From Negaprion brevirostris (lineage: Eukaryota), in assembly GCA_030324005.1 (NCBI GenBank), contig JARDVH010000132.1, positions 40,700,265 to 40,764,264 of the forward strand: DNA of 64,000 nt, in the 5' to 3' direction. This document shows positions 18,001 through 63,000 of the stretch, one piece after another. Each line of letters begins with the position of its first letter. Within the stretch, counting starts at the first letter, position 1. Made by a program: the position numbers.

Positions 18001-21000
18001 GGGGAATATGCTTGAGTGCAAACATTGGAGGAAGGCACAAAGATGGAGAAGAGGTGAGGCAATAAATGGATAATGCATGAGAATTTTAATTTGAAATGCT
18101 GCCAAACAGCCGATCAGCAAAAACAGAAGTAATAAGTTAGCATGACTTGGTGCAGGCTACAATACAAGTTAACAGATTTTTAAATGAGTTGAAGATTCAG
18201 AAGGATGAGGATGGGAGCCAGAGAGGAAAGCAATGAAATAGTCGAGTCTAGAGGTACCAAGGGCTGAGCGACCCTTTGTCCAAATCCTTTGTGATTGGTA
18301 AAGATAACCTGGAGAAAGCAAAACTTGTATAAATGATCAAAAATGAAATGTTAGTGAAATATACCTGTAAATTCCTGTGGCTCTTCAAGATAAAACGTTC
18401 CAATCTGTAGGAGCAGCATTATCACAAGCACAGCAGTGTTTCAAGAAGGCCAGTTTGTAGTGCAATAAAAATTGGCTTTTGCCAGTAACATCACCCATAT
18501 CCAAGATCAATCAATAGTCTTGTCTAATAACCAAACTGACTTCAAGAGAATTGTAGCATTTGAATTTCCTCAGTTGAAACCATGTACACTTGCTGTGGAC
18601 AATCTTAGGTTAATATATACCTAGCATTAATCTTAATTTGTGATTTAAAAATACAACAATGGATTTCAAAAGCAGTGAGATAATGCTAACCTAATAGCCA
18701 ACGTAAGACAGAGACGAGGAGGAATTTCTTCTCTGCTGAGGGGCTTTGGAACTCATTGCCACAGAGAACTGTGGGGGGCAGAGCCCTCGTATGTATTTAA
18801 GGCTGAGATAGATTTTTGATCAGTAAGGGAGTTAAGGGTTACAGGGAAAGGGCAGGAATGTGGATATGAGGAATATCAAATCAGCCATGACTATATTGAA
18901 TAGCGGAGCAGGGTTCAGGGTGCCTGTGGACCTATTCCTGTTCCTCTTCCTTATGGTGTTAACACAAATCATTCATTAGGCCACAATTAGAATATTGTTG
19001 AAAATGGATAGGGTGCAGAAGTAATTACAAAAGAGATAGCAGAGTAAAGAGGGACTAGATATTTCACTAGAATAAAGAAGGTTGGGAGGGAATCTGTTGA
19101 CAAATTATGAGAGGTTTTATAATGGTGAATAGGAAAGGACTGTTCCTACTAATCAGTGAGTCTCTTTTAGAGGACATCCATTTAAGATATCAGAAAAGAA
19201 CAATGGGAGAGGTCAGGAGAGCAAACATAGTGCAGAAATTTCTTGGAATCCCCTGTTAAAAAACATGAGGAAGCATCTATAGCAGCTTTCAAAAGAGGAA
19301 GGAGGAGGGGGAAATGACAGAGTAATAAGATCAAGGGAACAGTTTTGTCAGAGTTGTTTATATGAATAATCTCTGCCTGAACTATAATATTCCGTAAATT
19401 AGAATTTTTTTTTGTGTTTTCGCCAATGTATTGTTAGTTGAGCTGTTTCAGAGAAAGACCTGATTTTTGTGATAAATGATGCCACAATATCTGGTTCACA
19501 AACAGGGAGAAAGCTGACAGAAACATTGCTGTTGATATGCTTTATAAATGTTTAGAATATTTCCCCAGCTGATGCAGATACACTGATGGTTTTCCTGATG
19601 GAATTAGTCACTGTTCTTATTAAAAGAGAAGTTATGGAAATCACTCATTCGTCTGGGCTGAGTACATTGCTTGCTGCAAAGTAAGGCATATTAAATTAGC
19701 TGTACAACATCAATCATATTCATTGAACAATTGCAGTATGAATACATGATACCTAGATGCAAAGTTATATTGTATGGCCAAAAGAGGCTAACAGTAAAGG
19801 CACACCCTGGCCCTTTGTTCAATAACAGTGTCTAACTTTTGGTATTTTACATTTATTTTGCTAATTTTACTTGTATGTGTACAATACATAGTCATGAATT
19901 GCAAATTCCAAAAGTTCTCACTTTGAACAATAATTATGATTACCGGTGATCTCTATTAAACAAAATTATCATCCTACTTATCTGGAAATGATTGATAATT
20001 GTACTTGCCACAGTTTAAAAGAGATGCAACCCTTGTACAAGTCACCAAATCAATCAGATTAACTATATTATTAAGCCAGAAGTGACCTTGTTTCAGTTTA
20101 CCGTGACAAACATTCACTGGTTGATGTTTGTCAGGTAATGTGGAAAAACTGTACATATTTACAAAACACTTTCAGAGCAAGCATTTCTGCAAGTATCAAA
20201 GATATGATTAGAAACAGACCTTTCTGGTCTTCAGTTGCATACACCATTTCTTTTCACAAAACCCCTTACAAATGCAAATGTTTTCATTTATCCTGTAATA
20301 CAGCTCAAACCAAAGCAGCTTTTGGCAAAATCATACATTTGTTTTTGTTTCTGCAAGCAACATCTTTGCTATAGACTAATGGAATTGGTTTCAGAAGGGA
20401 TTCATGCATTCAGTGTTATTCACTGCAGTGTGTGCATAGGGGCGTTCAACCGAACCTTGTTGAAAAATGGTTTCTCTCAATCTTCTTCCACAGTTCTAAG
20501 CACCATAACAAATGAGAATAAGTGGCGAGTTTTTTTTAATTGTCTGTTTCAGGATGAGTTCTCATCCCCAGATCATTGTATCAGTGCTGTATTTTCCACA
20601 AGAATGCTGACTCTTCATCATAGAATGTCAGTTGTTTTATTAGCAATGAATCAGAGTCTTCTCAGTATTTTCTGTTTAGTAGCCCTGGCCTTTCTCTGAA
20701 GATAGCAAAGTATGTACTTCTGACTCCTATCTTCCAAAAACCTCACTGAGGCTCCAGAGAGCCATTAATTAAAAGACATTGGCATAAGGCTGCCAGTTAT
20801 AAAAGTGGAAGAAAATGGAAATCTTTCGTGGCTCAGATCCACTGAATAGAAGTCTAAATGGAAGTCTCCCAGAGCTGCGGAAGAAACAGAAATATATTTT
20901 AGCAAAGCTTTACAACTCAGACAAAAACTAATAATCTTTTGACAAAAAGGCAACACTTGCTTATTTACATAAATTCTATTTCATTTGCATGAATTCGATC

Positions 21001-60000: not shown

Positions 60001-63000
60001 TTCTTTTGTCCTACAAGTGAAATATGTAATATCCCTGATGCTACACTTGGTCAAAAGTGGCTCTGATGCCAAGGACAGTCACTCTCAACTCATGCCTTGA
60101 GCTCAGTGCTTTTGTTCATGTTTGGACTATGATTAGTTTCTTACCCTGCTTGCTGACATCACCCTAGACATGGCGACAGATATAAATTGGCATTGGGAAA
60201 GAAGTCCCATGGCACTGAGACCATTAGATCGTTTTGGGCATATTTTTACCAAAGTCAATGAGCCATTGCTTCACTACTAACCGCAATATCACGCCCCAAA
60301 TATATGGTTGATTGGTAAACTTCCCTCCCTAGAGCATGGGCTCATGAAATTAGGTCTGAAGTCTTATGTGACTACTGTTTATTTCAGTTAATGAAGGAAA
60401 CAAAATATATCCTCTTAATGAGTGTATCACAACAGTGCAGAAAGAGGCCATTCAGCCCAATGAGTCTGCACCAATTCTCTGAAGAGCATCACAATGAAAA
60501 AATTCGGTCAGCATAAATATAGTTATCAATAATGTAAAGGTTAGCTCAAGAAAGTTACACAGCAATACAAAGGCAAAGTTTTGATACTTACTTGTAAAAA
60601 AATGCTGCAACAGCCAAGATTAGGATTGCCATAAGGATGGTCCCTGCGATGGCACCTATGATAATATTGGTTCGAACTGACCCTGAGACAATGAGGAAGG
60701 AACACAACTAATTAATCTCTGAAGAAGTCAGTTAGCAACGATTTAAAGTTGACTCATACGTGTTCCATATTGTTTTCCTTCACATTAAAGCCATCTCACA
60801 TTGTCACTCATTCCTTTCCTGTCATTATGATACTTTAGAACTGGATGTATAAAGATACCTAAACAAGGCTCCTGCTGGTCTTCTGCCAAAATTACAGCGA
60901 TCAGTGGAACTCCCCCAGGAAATTCCAGGTATTTACGCATTTTAATAGATTTCATGAGGTATCTACGAGTTACCAGTCTGTTATATTTCCTGATTCATCT
61001 TCAATGCTATTAAATCTTAAATATGACTATTTGCAATTTCATACAATCTAATGTACTGAACAATTCCTTTCTTTTCCATCTAATTATGCAAAACAGCAGA
61101 ATTAGTAATCCTTTAAAAATAACTAAGGAGTTACACAAAATGTTAATATTAAGAGTCAGTTAGAGTATTTAAATGTTCATATAAGAAACTATTAGGGTTG
61201 CATGAGCTATTTAACTTTATGGTTATATCTCATTTAGGTAGAGGTGTCAGAATATGTGCATTACATTGGTAATTCACAGTGTGTAACCCAAATTCATGGT
61301 AAATTAATAAAATCCATTAACTATCACCTTAAAAAAACCCCAGGATTTGCAAGTTCCAGGTTTGCGCAGGTCATAGGAATTCTGAGAATAGGGACTACAA
61401 ATTTCAAGTAAGTTTGTTTCTTCATAATTACATCTAATTCTTAAAAATGCACTGAATCACCAACACAAAACACAGCACTAGTTAAAAAATAAAAGATGTG
61501 AACTTCTGTACTATTAGATACAACTTCAGATTGTGATATTGGATAGAATTACCTACAAAAATACAAAATAAACAACAGAATAGGGCACACAGGACAGCAC
61601 ATATTTCACCACATTGTTAACTCAGCATTATTACAATTATGCAACTCTTCTTGATGCTCTGTAACTTAAAGCTTAAAAAAAATAAACTTCTTTGATTCAG
61701 AATTTCCATCTCATTGTGAAGGCTTCAGGCCAATTCACATCCAACAACCTGCTCTGAAAATTCTGCGTAGATTTTTATAGCTGTCACAAATTGCACATCA
61801 GCAGCTGAGATTATCAACAACATTCCAAAACAAACAACAACATTCTAAATTAAATAACCGACAATGTTCAAAAAGAAAGTCAATTAACCGATTCTCTCAC
61901 TGTTAAAGGATGGACCATTTAAAATAATTCCAGGGTCCAGAAATGCATCTCCCCAAAACTAGTCAGTTCATTCTTCGAACATACCCTATCTGTCAAGTTT
62001 TTACAAAGTCTGTCGATTAGTTTTGAGATATATTGTTCACAAGCAGGCTAACATACTAACAACCTGTGTAAAAGCACTGGCCAGAACTTTATACTTTCCC
62101 CACCCCAGTGCAGGCTCTGAGCAAGGGGGGGGATTTGATCATCTGGTTGTGAATTTATGCTAGGGCAGCCCTCAGTGGAGAAGCTCACTTTTACCACCAT
62201 TTAATGCCCTATTAAGGTTCTTTTCCTGCTCAACCTGCAACATGACCATCCACCTCTCAGTCTAAACCCTATCTCCCAATGGGACCTGACCAGATCCCCC
62301 TTCCATTGTTGCAACCCCCCCACCCCACCCTATGCCATCTTCTCCAATGCCCCCTTCTGCTCTGGCCATACTCCTCCAGTACTCTGAATCCCCATTTGTT
62401 CTGGACAACCCCCTCCNNNNNNNNNNNNNNNNNNNNNNNNNNNNNNNNNNNNNNNNNNNNNNNNNNNNNNNNNNNNNNNNNNNNNNNNNNNNNNNNNNNN
62501 NNNNNNNNNNNNNNNNNNNNNNNNNNNNNNNNNNNNNNNNNNNNNNNNNNNNNNNNNNNNNNNNNNNNNNNNNNNNNNNNNNNNNNNNNNNNNNNNNNNN
62601 NNNNNNNNNNNNNNNNNNNNNNNNNNNNNNNNNNNNNNNNNNNNNNNNNNNNNNNNNNNNNNNNNNNNNNNNNNNNNNNNNNNNNNNNNNNNNNNNNNNN
62701 NNNNNNNNNNNNNNNNNNNNNNNTTAAGGTGCTTCTCAAGAGTCAGGAAGGTTGGACGAGACAGCAGCTTTCAAATCCCAGTGAAGGTAAGTTCATTTGA
62801 AGTGGCAATCTGACAGAGACTGCCACTCTGCACAAGTTACAGGACATAGAATTTAAGTTTAAAACAGACATTTTTAAAATCCCTACCAACAGCTGGAGAA
62901 ATGTGACCCACACTTACAATAGTTTATCTTCAGTGCCAGGATGGTTATTTACAGTAAGTAACTGTCATCAAGTCATATAAGGTCATTTAGACTGAAATGG

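What the first reader, a model, noticed from the sequence alone, without database searches (positions are those of the whole stretch)
20854..60682. ADAM22 cytoplasmic tail may be a larger combinatorial cassette system than the recognisable exons
Seen: most tail introns (TM to SNGL exon, and STE exon to TLSP exon) are phase 2, so any 3n phase-2 exon can be inserted. Besides the recognisable 18-, 111- and 87-nt exons, I read four more stop-free, frame-preserving AG..GT units (12, 36, 27/15 and 51 nt) and three strong acceptors that would end translation before ETSI. Known: ADAM22 is the LGI1 receptor, its tail binds PSD-95-family PDZ domains via ETSI and 14-3-3 via RSxS motifs, and it is extensively alternatively spliced in mammals. 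Inference: a cartilaginous-fish repertoire of tail modules, some with neural microexon signatures. Caveat: AG..GT pairs arise by chance in 40 kb and one in three preserves frame.
[Added by the scan's program, not by the reader: the finding's places include an assembly gap (unread letters, written N; its length is only estimated) at 28899 to 29218, 41222 to 41321, 42739 to 42838, 47089 to 47188, 57676 to 57775, 59088 to 59187. Whether the letters on both sides are continuous or in frame is not known: test that first.]
Basis: partly seen in the sequence, partly recalled or inferred. Interest (0 to 1): 0.7.

Follow-up and report, generated by a model that had tools for sequence, protein, structure and literature searches.

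The report
Shark ADAM22 tail cassette exons

Summary
The region 20854-60682 is the 3' part of an elasmobranch ADAM22 gene on the minus strand. I mapped five constant tail exons (TM, SNGL, STE, TLSP, LWETSI*) and four cassettes of 18, 111, 87 and 27 nt. All four cassettes are multiples of three and are flanked by phase-2 introns; 6 of the 8 tail introns are phase 2.

It is 9/9 identical to annotated isoforms of Chiloscyllium punctatum and Amblyraja radiata.

The other units do not stand out:
- The phase-2 introns hold 1322 open 3n AG..GT units.
- Wrong frames, the antisense strand and shuffles give equal numbers, also among well-scoring units.
- None of the other units matches any of 137 named ADAM22 proteins.

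One unannotated unit stays open. It ends at a strong donor at 29530 (51/33/30 nt) and shares the UGC-rich, strong-donor signature of the 18- and 27-nt exons.

Strong truncating acceptors exist (20 sense against 24 antisense), which is chance level. All six gaps lie in introns.

A combinatorial ADAM22 tail has been known in mouse since 2005. Verdict: ordinary and mostly already known.

The parts
60592..60682 (-). Transmembrane exon (91 nt), GSVRTNIIIGAIAGTILMAILILAVAAFFYK; ends in phase 2 (AA|gtaagt)
   Evidence: Read. tblastn to S. canicula P0009 96.8% identity and to Chiloscyllium P0004 90.3%, over 31 aa.
51783..51800 (-). 18-nt cassette microexon, (K)NYRER(R); phase 2 on both sides; 3 UGC within 40 nt upstream
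   Evidence: Read. NYRERR matched in P0004, P0005 and P0009. Present in 9 of 19 chondrichthyan representative proteins. UGC count.
50899..51009 (-). 111-nt cassette exon, [36 protein letters not shown](R); phase 2 on both sides; weak donor gtctgc
   Evidence: Read. The 37 residues are identical to shark proteins. Present in 12 of 19 chondrichthyan representatives.
49226..49326 (-). Constant exon (101 nt), [33 protein letters not shown]; enters in phase 2, leaves in phase 1; carries the first RSNS motif
   Evidence: Read. 100% identity over 35 aa to P0004, P0009 and P0018.
42647..42713 (-). Constant exon (67 nt), GNLGANRKKNKGRKFRPRSNSTE; enters in phase 1, leaves in phase 2; the gap 42739-42838 starts 26 nt upstream of its first base
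   Evidence: Read. 100% identity over 23 aa to P0004. Gap distance.
35102..35188 (-). 87-nt cassette exon, YLNPWYKREYNVAKWVEDVNKNTEGPYF(R); phase 2 on both sides; 3 UGC upstream; conserved upstream intron
   Evidence: Read. Identical to Pristis P0018 and Callorhinchus P0008. In 4 of 19 chondrichthyan representatives. Upstream intron compared with the P0007 retained piece.
34610..34636 (-). 27-nt cassette microexon, QCNRNMGE(G); phase 2 on both sides; donor GG|gtgagt; an internal AG at 34625-34626 would give a 15-nt form (34624-34610).
   Evidence: Read. 9/9 identical to C. punctatum isoform X2 (P0004) and Amblyraja radiata X4 (P0019). 5 UGC in -40..-3. No annotated protein among those seen uses the 15-nt form.
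25377..25500 (-). Constant exon (124 nt), [41 protein letters not shown]; enters in phase 2, leaves in phase 0
   Evidence: Read. 41/41 identical to Chiloscyllium and Carcharodon proteins.
20854..20874 (-). Coding part of the last exon, LWETSI*, with the PDZ ligand ETSI
   Evidence: Read. 129 of 137 named ADAM22 proteins end in LWETSI after QSAR.
29530..29580 (-). Unannotated candidate cassette: strong donor GAG|gtgaga at 29530 with three acceptors (29580 = 51 nt, 29562 = 33 nt, 29559 = 30 nt); encodes ..(R)GKTRRPISE. Status open.
   Evidence: Ranks 5-7 of 829 in STE>TLSP. 3 UGC upstream of the 33/30-nt acceptors. One of only 3 loci with the post hoc signature, against 0 in controls. No match in 137 proteins beyond a 6/10 chance-level likeness to the STE exon.
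41045..41056 (-).
   Evidence: Rank 1 of 829 by my crude score, sum 8.5. Units of sum >=8 number 0.9 +/- 1.2 per shuffle and 4, 4 and 0 in the antisense frames. 0 UGC upstream. No protein match.
50069..50104 (-). Best-scoring 36-nt unit in TM>SNGL (MPSHCIHKTHA); a second 36-nt unit lies at 32342-32307.
   Evidence: Rank 10 of 517, and rank 29 of 829 for the second. 1 and 0 UGC. No protein match.

Best explanation
The region encodes the transmembrane segment and cytoplasmic tail of an elasmobranch ADAM22, the catalytically inactive ADAM that serves as LGI1 receptor.

Five constant exons carry the functional anchors:
- the TM helix;
- two RSNS motifs (RPRSNSWQ and RPRSNSTE);
- the C-terminal PDZ ligand ETSI.

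Four optional exons lie in two runs of phase-2 introns: 18 and 111 nt between TM and the first RSNS motif, 87 and 27 nt between the second RSNS motif and the PDZ-ligand exons. Each cassette is a multiple of three with the same phase on both sides, so each can be included or skipped independently without changing the frame. This gives up to 16 tail forms that differ in spacer length and content while keeping the anchors.

The 18- and 27-nt exons have the build of SRRM3/4-dependent neural microexons: at most 27 nt, UGC-rich stretch before the AG, weak acceptor, strong donor. They are therefore most likely included in neurons.

Shown here: exon positions, phases, identity to annotated isoforms of other species, and the sequence signatures. 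Inferred: actual splicing in this species, tissue specificity and functional effect.

The unit ending at 29530 is possible. The 12- and 36-nt units and the truncating acceptors are what 28-40 kb of intron yields by chance.
For: - Exon-by-exon matches are 90-100% identical to annotated shark, ray and chimaera ADAM22.
- Junction codons read directly give phase 2 for 6 of 8 introns.
- Among 19 chondrichthyan representative proteins the 18/111 cassettes occur as both (7), neither (5), 111 only (5) and 18 only (2). The 87-nt exon is in 4 and the 27-nt exon in 2. All combinations of the first pair are therefore annotated.
- The 27-nt exon is 9/9 identical in the window, a bamboo shark and a skate.
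- UGC counts upstream are e18 3, e87 3 and e27 5, against 0-1 for constant exons. The background mean is 0.62, and >=3 occurs at 3.2% of 2615 AG sites.
- By my score the four known cassettes rank 4 and 5 of 517, and 9 and 10 of 829.
- Chance controls: 2013 open in-frame units in all eight introns, with equal counts in wrong frames. For score >=4 there are 8 and 10 units (known cassettes included), against 3.9 +/- 2.2 and 6.1 +/- 2.8 in shuffles, 2-14 in wrong frames and 3-11 in antisense.
- Of 1718 units tested against 137 proteins, only the four known cassettes and their sub-variants matched fully.
- The mouse precedent is in PMC1142324. The microexon signature is described in bioRxiv 10.1101/2024.09.17.613571 and PMC12626420 (passages).
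Against: - No RNA data for this species could be consulted, so inclusion and skipping of any cassette here is inferred from other species' gene models. Most of those are automatic predictions.
- Only one representative per 90% cluster was visible and cluster members could not be listed. Annotated isoforms carrying further cassettes may exist unseen.
- My splice-site score uses frequencies recalled from memory and spreads the true exons widely (acceptors -2.3 to 10.1, donors -1.1 to 6.9). It cannot exclude weak real exons.
- No shark or ray genomic DNA was available, so exon-restricted conservation of the candidates was not tested.
- 21-26% of SRRM3/4-dependent microexons lack a UGC between branch point and AG, so a missing UGC does not rule out the 12-nt unit.
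- Six gaps could hide cassettes, for instance a counterpart of the S. canicula 8-residue insert, which was not found in read sequence.
Confidence: 0.8

Rival explanations
1. One reading: the tail repertoire in cartilaginous fish is substantially larger. On this view the 12-, 36- and 51-nt units are real cassettes and several strong intronic acceptors give real truncated, ETSI-less isoforms.
For: - The unit ending at 29530 has a strong donor (6.3), three UGC before its 33/30-nt acceptors and a plausible branch point about 20 nt upstream.
- The combined signature occurs at only 3 sense-strand loci, two of them the annotated microexons, and at 0 loci on the antisense strand or in window 1-20853 on either strand.
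- Other species carry lineage-specific cassettes at the same place: YPSPATSR in S. canicula, and 37- and 10-residue inserts in amniotes.
- ETSI-less ends are annotated in Callorhinchus, Amblyraja and Papio.
- Mouse has more tail exons than the main ones.
Against: - Counts of open and of well-scoring units equal those of wrong frames, antisense and shuffles.
- Acceptors scoring >=6 number 20 sense against 24 antisense.
- The 12- and 36-nt candidates have 0-1 UGC.
- None of the 1718 units other than the known cassettes matches an annotated tail.
- No window match was found to the Amblyraja or Papio alternative ends, or to the S. canicula, mammalian 37-, 11- or 29-residue cassettes.
- The thresholds of the signature were chosen after seeing e18 and e27, so that result is a lead and not a test.
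Confidence: 0.25
2. Even the 27-nt unit is not a genuine exon but an annotation artefact carried over between automatic gene models.
For: Both supporting proteins are predicted isoforms (X2, X4) and I could not see their transcript support. The acceptor scores poorly in my model (-2.3). It occurs in only 2 of 19 chondrichthyan representatives.
Against: - 9/9 residues are identical in three species, including a shark-skate comparison, in sequence that would otherwise be intron.
- It has a consensus donor GG|gtgagt (6.6) and 5 UGC in the 40 nt before the AG; >=4 occurs at 0.4% of AG sites.
- A weak acceptor with a strong donor is the expected build of such microexons.
Confidence: 0.05

Closest known systems
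Mouse Adam22 cytoplasmic-tail exon set (Sagane et al. 2005, PMC1142324; passages seen)
   Same: - Optional exons whose lengths are multiples of three, so that insertion or skipping keeps the frame.
- GT-AG introns, many combinations (16 clone types among 47 clones) and tissue-typed forms: CNS, DRG and Schwann cell.
- By protein comparison the shark 18-, 111- and 87-nt exons correspond to the NYREQR, QLPQGDY..KKR and YLNPWFK.. pieces of mammalian proteins. My assignment of these to mouse exon numbers 26, 27 and 29.5 is inference.
   Different: The window has no detectable counterpart of the mammalian 37-residue REPQ..DHR insert, the SSQDG.. insert or the 29-residue SAFLSHFQ.. extension. The shark 27-nt exon sits where mammals have the roughly 30-nt SSQDG.. 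insert, between the 87-nt exon and the TLSP exon, but shows no sequence likeness. Homology is therefore not shown.
NCBI isoform models of elasmobranch ADAM22: Chiloscyllium punctatum X2 (P0004), Amblyraja radiata X4 (P0019), Pristis pectinata X2/X5/X6, Scyliorhinus canicula X3
   Same: Same exon order and the same cassettes. The QCNRNMGEG insert is identical, and the tail exons are 90-100% identical.
   Different: The window's TM exon differs from each of them, at best 30/31 to S. canicula, so it comes from another species or assembly. The S. canicula YPSPATSR insert and the Amblyraja alternative end were not found in read sequence.
SRRM3/4-dependent neural microexons (bioRxiv 10.1101/2024.09.17.613571, PMC12626420; passages seen)
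   Same: The 18- and 27-nt exons are at most 27 nt long and have UC-rich plus UGC elements before the AG, weak acceptors and strong donors.
   Different: Neural inclusion and dependence on SRRM3/4 were not tested here.
Xenopus adam22 isoforms (Wei et al. 2010, PMC3055250; abstract and passages seen)
   Same: Transmembrane isoforms that differ in the cytoplasmic tail, with a splicing pattern similar to that of mammals.
   Different: Xenopus also has a truncated soluble isoform. Nothing comparable was examined here, because the window begins near the TM exon.

Membership tests
ADAM22 orthologue (tail part) | TM segment followed by two RSNS motifs ([16 protein letters not shown]) and the C-terminal PDZ ligand ETSI, in that order | tested here: met
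   All are present in window exons in the right order and frame. The best protein hits are all named ADAM22. ETSI as the PSD-95 PDZ3 ligand: PMC7826393. Phospho-S832 and 14-3-3: secondary mention in bioRxiv 10.1101/2023.07.24.550266.
ADAM22 orthologue (tail part) | Ectodomain: inactive metalloprotease, disintegrin, cysteine-rich and EGF domains | not testable with these tools
   The window ends about 3.3 kb upstream of the TM exon, and tblastn found no ectodomain exon in it.
ADAM22 tail cassette-exon system | Cassette lengths are multiples of three and both flanking introns have the same phase | tested here: met
   The 18-, 111-, 87- and 27-nt exons are each 1 + 3n + 2 nt between phase-2 introns.
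ADAM22 tail cassette-exon system | Canonical AG..GT borders | tested here: met
   All nine exons have AG acceptors, and the eight internal ones have GT donors (the last-exon start was corrected to 20874).
ADAM22 tail cassette-exon system | Transcripts with and without each cassette | tested here: inconclusive
   This is seen only as annotated isoforms of other chondrichthyans: e18 in 9/19, e111 in 12/19, e87 in 4/19 and e27 in 2/19. No RNA of this species was available.
SRRM3/4-type neural microexon (18- and 27-nt exons) | Length 3-27 nt | tested here: met
   18 and 27 nt. The length definition comes from the abstract of 10.64898/2026.05.02.722430 in the search listing.
SRRM3/4-type neural microexon (18- and 27-nt exons) | UGC motif(s) with a UC-rich tract just upstream of the AG; weak 3' splice site and strong 5' splice site | tested here: met
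   3 and 5 UGC in -40..-3, against a background mean of 0.62. Acceptor scores are 0.1 and -2.3; donor scores are 5.1 and 6.6 (own crude score).
SRRM3/4-type neural microexon (18- and 27-nt exons) | Neuron-specific inclusion dependent on SRRM3/4 | not testable with these tools
   This needs RNA-seq or a minigene assay.
   There are 0-1 UGC at 41056, 51982, 36313, 50104 and 32342, and no match in 137 named ADAM22 proteins. DNA-level conservation could not be tested.
SRRM3/4-type neural microexon (unit ending at 29530) | UGC-rich 3' splice-site region, strong donor and conservation | tested here: inconclusive
   There are 3 UGC before the 33/30-nt acceptors and the donor scores 6.3. At 30-51 nt it is longer than the 27-nt limit. 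It is in no annotated isoform, and conservation was not testable.

The most novel reading that the evidence does not exclude
The unit ending at the strong donor 29530 (30/33 nt through a tandem CAG|CAG acceptor, or 51 nt) is a so far unannotated, neurally regulated elasmobranch cassette. It would insert a basic, serine-bearing module (..GKTRRPISE..) between the second RSNS motif and the PDZ-ligand exons, adding a fifth independent switch to the ADAM22 tail.
Probability: 0.2. Interest if true: 0.35.

Novelty: already known. Interest (0 to 1): 0.2.

Why it matters
ADAM22 links LGI1 outside the cell to PSD-95-family scaffolds and 14-3-3 inside it. Loss of its PDZ ligand causes lethal epilepsy in mice (PMC7826393).

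The window shows that the frame-neutral cassette design of the tail goes back at least to the common ancestor of cartilaginous fishes and tetrapods. This covers the 18-, 111- and 87-nt exons, which are shared with tetrapods. Elasmobranchs add a conserved 27-nt microexon of their own.

That is a tidy piece of comparative annotation rather than a surprise. The principle was published for mouse in 2005, and the shark isoforms are already in public gene models.

The practical value is a negative one. Hand-picked open AG..GT units in long introns carry almost no information unless they also show conservation or a regulatory signature.

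Tried and rejected
- The listing of cluster members, to see all isoforms hidden inside the 90% clusters, was switched off. Only representatives could be used.
I searched instead with the tail region of the named protein P0004.
- The 'shorter' search gave no new named cartilaginous-fish isoform. Its many unnamed hits were left unused.
- Ungapped scans for the S. canicula YPSPATSR insert, the Amblyraja and Papio alternative ends, and the mammalian 37-, 11- and 29-residue cassettes found nothing convincing. The best was 4/8 for YPSPATSR, and 5-9 identical residues for the 11- to 37-residue queries.
- The likeness of RGKTRRPISE to the STE exon (6/10) was considered as an exon duplication and rejected. 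By eye the DNA of the two is no more alike than random, and one such hit is expected among millions of comparisons.
- Rbfox-type GCATG motifs near the exons did not discriminate known from candidate units.
- Self-comparison of the window marks only 9.7% of the region as repeated. It removes only a few candidates (56437, 56737, 55714) as repeat-derived.
- Pfam on ten long intronic ORFs gave one ALKBH8_N match and nothing else.
- Rfam found nothing in the window.
- Literature searches for ADAM22 with 'microexon' gave 2 papers, neither of which, by title and abstract, is about ADAM22 splicing.
- One search was an empty script.
- A joined (spliced) model of the window's exons was not built or searched. 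Exons were compared one by one.

Full report
**What is there**

The window carries ten runs of N. Six of them lie inside the finding. The motif ETSI followed by a stop is on the minus strand at 20854-20868, so the gene runs from high to low coordinates.

Direct reading gave nine tail exons. I confirmed them by exon-by-exon comparison with annotated ADAM22 proteins. Those proteins came from a search with the TLSP exon alone and were aligned to the window with tblastn.

| Exon | Coordinates (minus strand) | Length |
|---|---|---|
| TM | 60682-60592 | 91 nt |
| NYRER cassette | 51800-51783 | 18 nt |
| QMPQ..KK cassette | 51009-50899 | 111 nt |
| SNGL | 49326-49226 | 101 nt |
| STE | 42713-42647 | 67 nt |
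| YLNPW.. cassette | 35188-35102 | 87 nt |
| QCNRNMGE cassette | 34636-34610 | 27 nt |
| TLSP | 25500-25377 | 124 nt |
| LWETSI* (coding part of last exon) | 20874-20854 | 21 nt |

Identity to shark and ray proteins is 100% for the 111-nt, SNGL, STE, 87-nt, 27-nt and TLSP exons, and 90-97% for the TM exon. The window is therefore a shark ADAM22 locus, but from none of the species retrieved.

**Gaps first**

All six gaps in the finding lie in introns. The nearest starts 26 nt upstream of the STE exon's first base, so that exon's acceptor and pyrimidine tract are in read sequence.

No exon spans a gap, so the question of frame across gaps does not arise. Every tail residue of the annotated protein P0004 is covered by a window exon, so no constant exon is lost in a gap. 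Unknown cassettes could still be hidden there.

The phase statement is right. Introns TM>18, 18>111, 111>SNGL, STE>87, 87>27 and 27>TLSP are all phase 2. SNGL>STE is phase 1 and TLSP>last exon is phase 0. Each cassette reads 1 + 3n + 2 nt.

The "27/15" unit is the exon at 34636-34610, and an internal AG would give the 15-nt form from 34624.

The best-scoring units of those lengths are:
- 12 nt: 41056-41045;
- 51 nt: 29580-29530;
- 36 nt: 50104-50069 or 32342-32307.

**Chance**

Being AG..GT, a multiple of three and stop-free is no evidence at all.
- The eight tail introns hold 2013 such units of 6-150 nt in the correct frame, and the two wrong frames give the same numbers, for instance 403 against 400 and 365 in the first intron.
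- The phase-2 introns alone hold 1322 units. Of these, 84 are 12 nt, 69 are 15 nt, 49 are 27 nt, 48 are 36 nt and 33 are 51 nt long.

I then scored splice sites with a simple position-weight model whose frequencies I recalled from memory. It is crude, but it places the four known cassettes at ranks 4 and 5 of 517 (TM>SNGL) and 9 and 10 of 829 (STE>TLSP).

Units with a summed score of 4 or more:

| Interval | Sense, correct frame (known cassettes included) | 30 dinucleotide shuffles | Wrong frames | Antisense frames |
|---|---|---|---|---|
| TM>SNGL | 8 | 3.9 +/- 2.2 | 2 and 7 | 10, 5, 3 |
| STE>TLSP | 10 | 6.1 +/- 2.8 | 12 and 14 | 11, 11, 5 |

Once the known cassettes are removed there is no excess.

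Acceptor-like sites scoring 6 or more number 20 in the sense introns and 24 on the antisense strand. Each is followed by an early stop, as random sequence would be.

**What annotated isoforms say**

I tabulated the inserts of 137 named vertebrate ADAM22 proteins.

Between RSNSTE and TLSP, cartilaginous fishes show four states:
- nothing;
- the 87-nt exon;
- QCNRNMGEG (Chiloscyllium punctatum X2 and Amblyraja radiata X4);
- YPSPATSR (Scyliorhinus canicula X3).

Amniotes show a 37-residue insert, the 87-nt exon and a roughly 10-residue insert.

Among the 19 chondrichthyan representatives the 18/111 pair occurs in all four combinations: 7 both, 5 neither, 5 with 111 only and 2 with 18 only. Five of the 19 lack the ETSI end.

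I compared all 1718 open in-frame units of at least 12 nt with these tails. Only the four known cassettes and their sub-variants matched fully.

Ungapped scans found no counterpart of the S. canicula insert, of the skate or baboon alternative ends, or of the mammalian cassettes.

One limit applies. Only one protein per 90% cluster is visible and cluster listing was switched off, so further annotated isoforms may exist.

**Signatures**

| Exon or unit | UGC in the 40 nt before the acceptor |
|---|---|
| 18-nt cassette | 3 |
| 87-nt cassette | 3 |
| 27-nt cassette | 5 |
| 111-nt cassette | 0 |
| Constant exons | 0-1 |
| Best 12- and 36-nt candidates | 0-1 |
| Background | mean 0.62; 3 or more at 3.2% of 2615 AG sites |

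A UGC near the 3' splice site with a UC-rich tract, a weak acceptor and a strong donor is the described build of SRRM3/4-dependent microexons (passages of bioRxiv 10.1101/2024.09.17.613571, and PMC12626420).

I searched for units of 3-60 nt with a donor score of 5 or more and at least 3 UGC upstream. This gave three sense-strand loci: the 18-nt exon, the 27-nt exon and the donor at 29530. It gave none on the antisense strand or in window 1-20853 on either strand. I chose these thresholds after seeing the known exons, so this is a lead and not a test.

The 29530 unit has a tandem acceptor (33 or 30 nt) about 20 nt after a branch-point-like CUUAC (my reading). It would encode ..GKTRRPISE... It is the one unannotated candidate worth following.

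**Flanking conservation**

The roughly 90 nt of intron upstream of the 87-nt exon translates to a string clearly alike to the retained-intron piece of a Callorhinchus model. This is the kind of flanking conservation expected of a regulated cassette. No such comparison was possible for the candidates.

**Comparison with what is known**

- Mouse Adam22 tail exons 26, 27, 27S, 27L, 29.1, 29.3, 29.5, 29.7, 30 and 31 were described in 2005. The same paper reported 16 clone types among 47 clones, noted that the 3n exons keep the frame, and described CNS, DRG and Schwann-cell forms (PMC1142324, passages).
- Xenopus isoforms differ likewise (PMC3055250, abstract and passages).
- Human exon 27 is alternatively spliced and developmentally regulated (PMC4817901, passages).
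- Godde et al. 2007 appeared only in a reference list; I did not read it.
- ETSI binds PSD-95 PDZ3, and its loss causes lethal epilepsy in mice (PMC7826393, passages).
- 14-3-3 binding to phospho-S832 protects ADAM22 from endocytosis; I saw this only as a secondary mention (bioRxiv 10.1101/2023.07.24.550266).
- I found no paper on the elasmobranch 27-nt exon in two searches (37 papers, 15 listed; 2 papers). Supplementary tables of microexon catalogues were closed and may list it.

**Verdict**

The system is real and has four cassettes, not three. It is an orthologue of a published mammalian design and is already present in public gene models. The remainder of the proposed repertoire is at chance level, apart from one open candidate at 29530.

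Noticed in passing
window 63573-63621 (-): This exon-like stretch, IICNDYSKLTVALAGL(G), is 15/17 identical to a juxtamembrane insert in the Carcharodon carcharias ADAM22 model P0005. A cag acceptor is present, but the donor position reads GC, not GT, in this window. It may be an optional extracellular stalk exon using a GC donor, or a decayed one.
   Followed up: partly
window 35189-35280 (-): The intron just upstream of the 87-nt exon translates to ..LLSFAMISDLFSSSSIFFVPTNAFCR. This is clearly alike to the retained-intron piece KNLLLSFAVISDILFFLFHFLCSPTPNAFCR of Callorhinchus model P0007. Flanking intron is thus conserved between a shark and a chimaera.
   Followed up: partly
window 50848-50898 (-): Reading through the weak donor of the 111-nt exon gives [16 protein letters not shown]. 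Its first residues resemble the start of the tetrapod 29-residue extension (SAFLSHFQ.. / SAILSHFQ..). The rest of that extension has no counterpart here; the best ungapped match is 6/29.
   Followed up: partly
window 25320-25376 (-): Reading through the TLSP exon donor gives [18 protein letters not shown]. This is the same kind of ETSI-less end as the four Callorhinchus UniProt models ending ..RQSARVSEH, which look like intron read-through.
   Followed up: no
window 21722-22141 (-): An open frame in the last intron matches Pfam ALKBH8_N (E 3.5e-9). My guess, from memory, is a transposon-derived fragment.
   Followed up: no
window about 55660-56790: Segments here are repeated up to 4 times within the window. 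Several well-scoring pseudo-exons fall in them (56437-56423, 56737-56693, 55714-55664). They look like interspersed repeats that offer splice-site-like sequence.
   Followed up: partly
whole window: No Rfam family reached its gathering score on either strand.
   Followed up: yes
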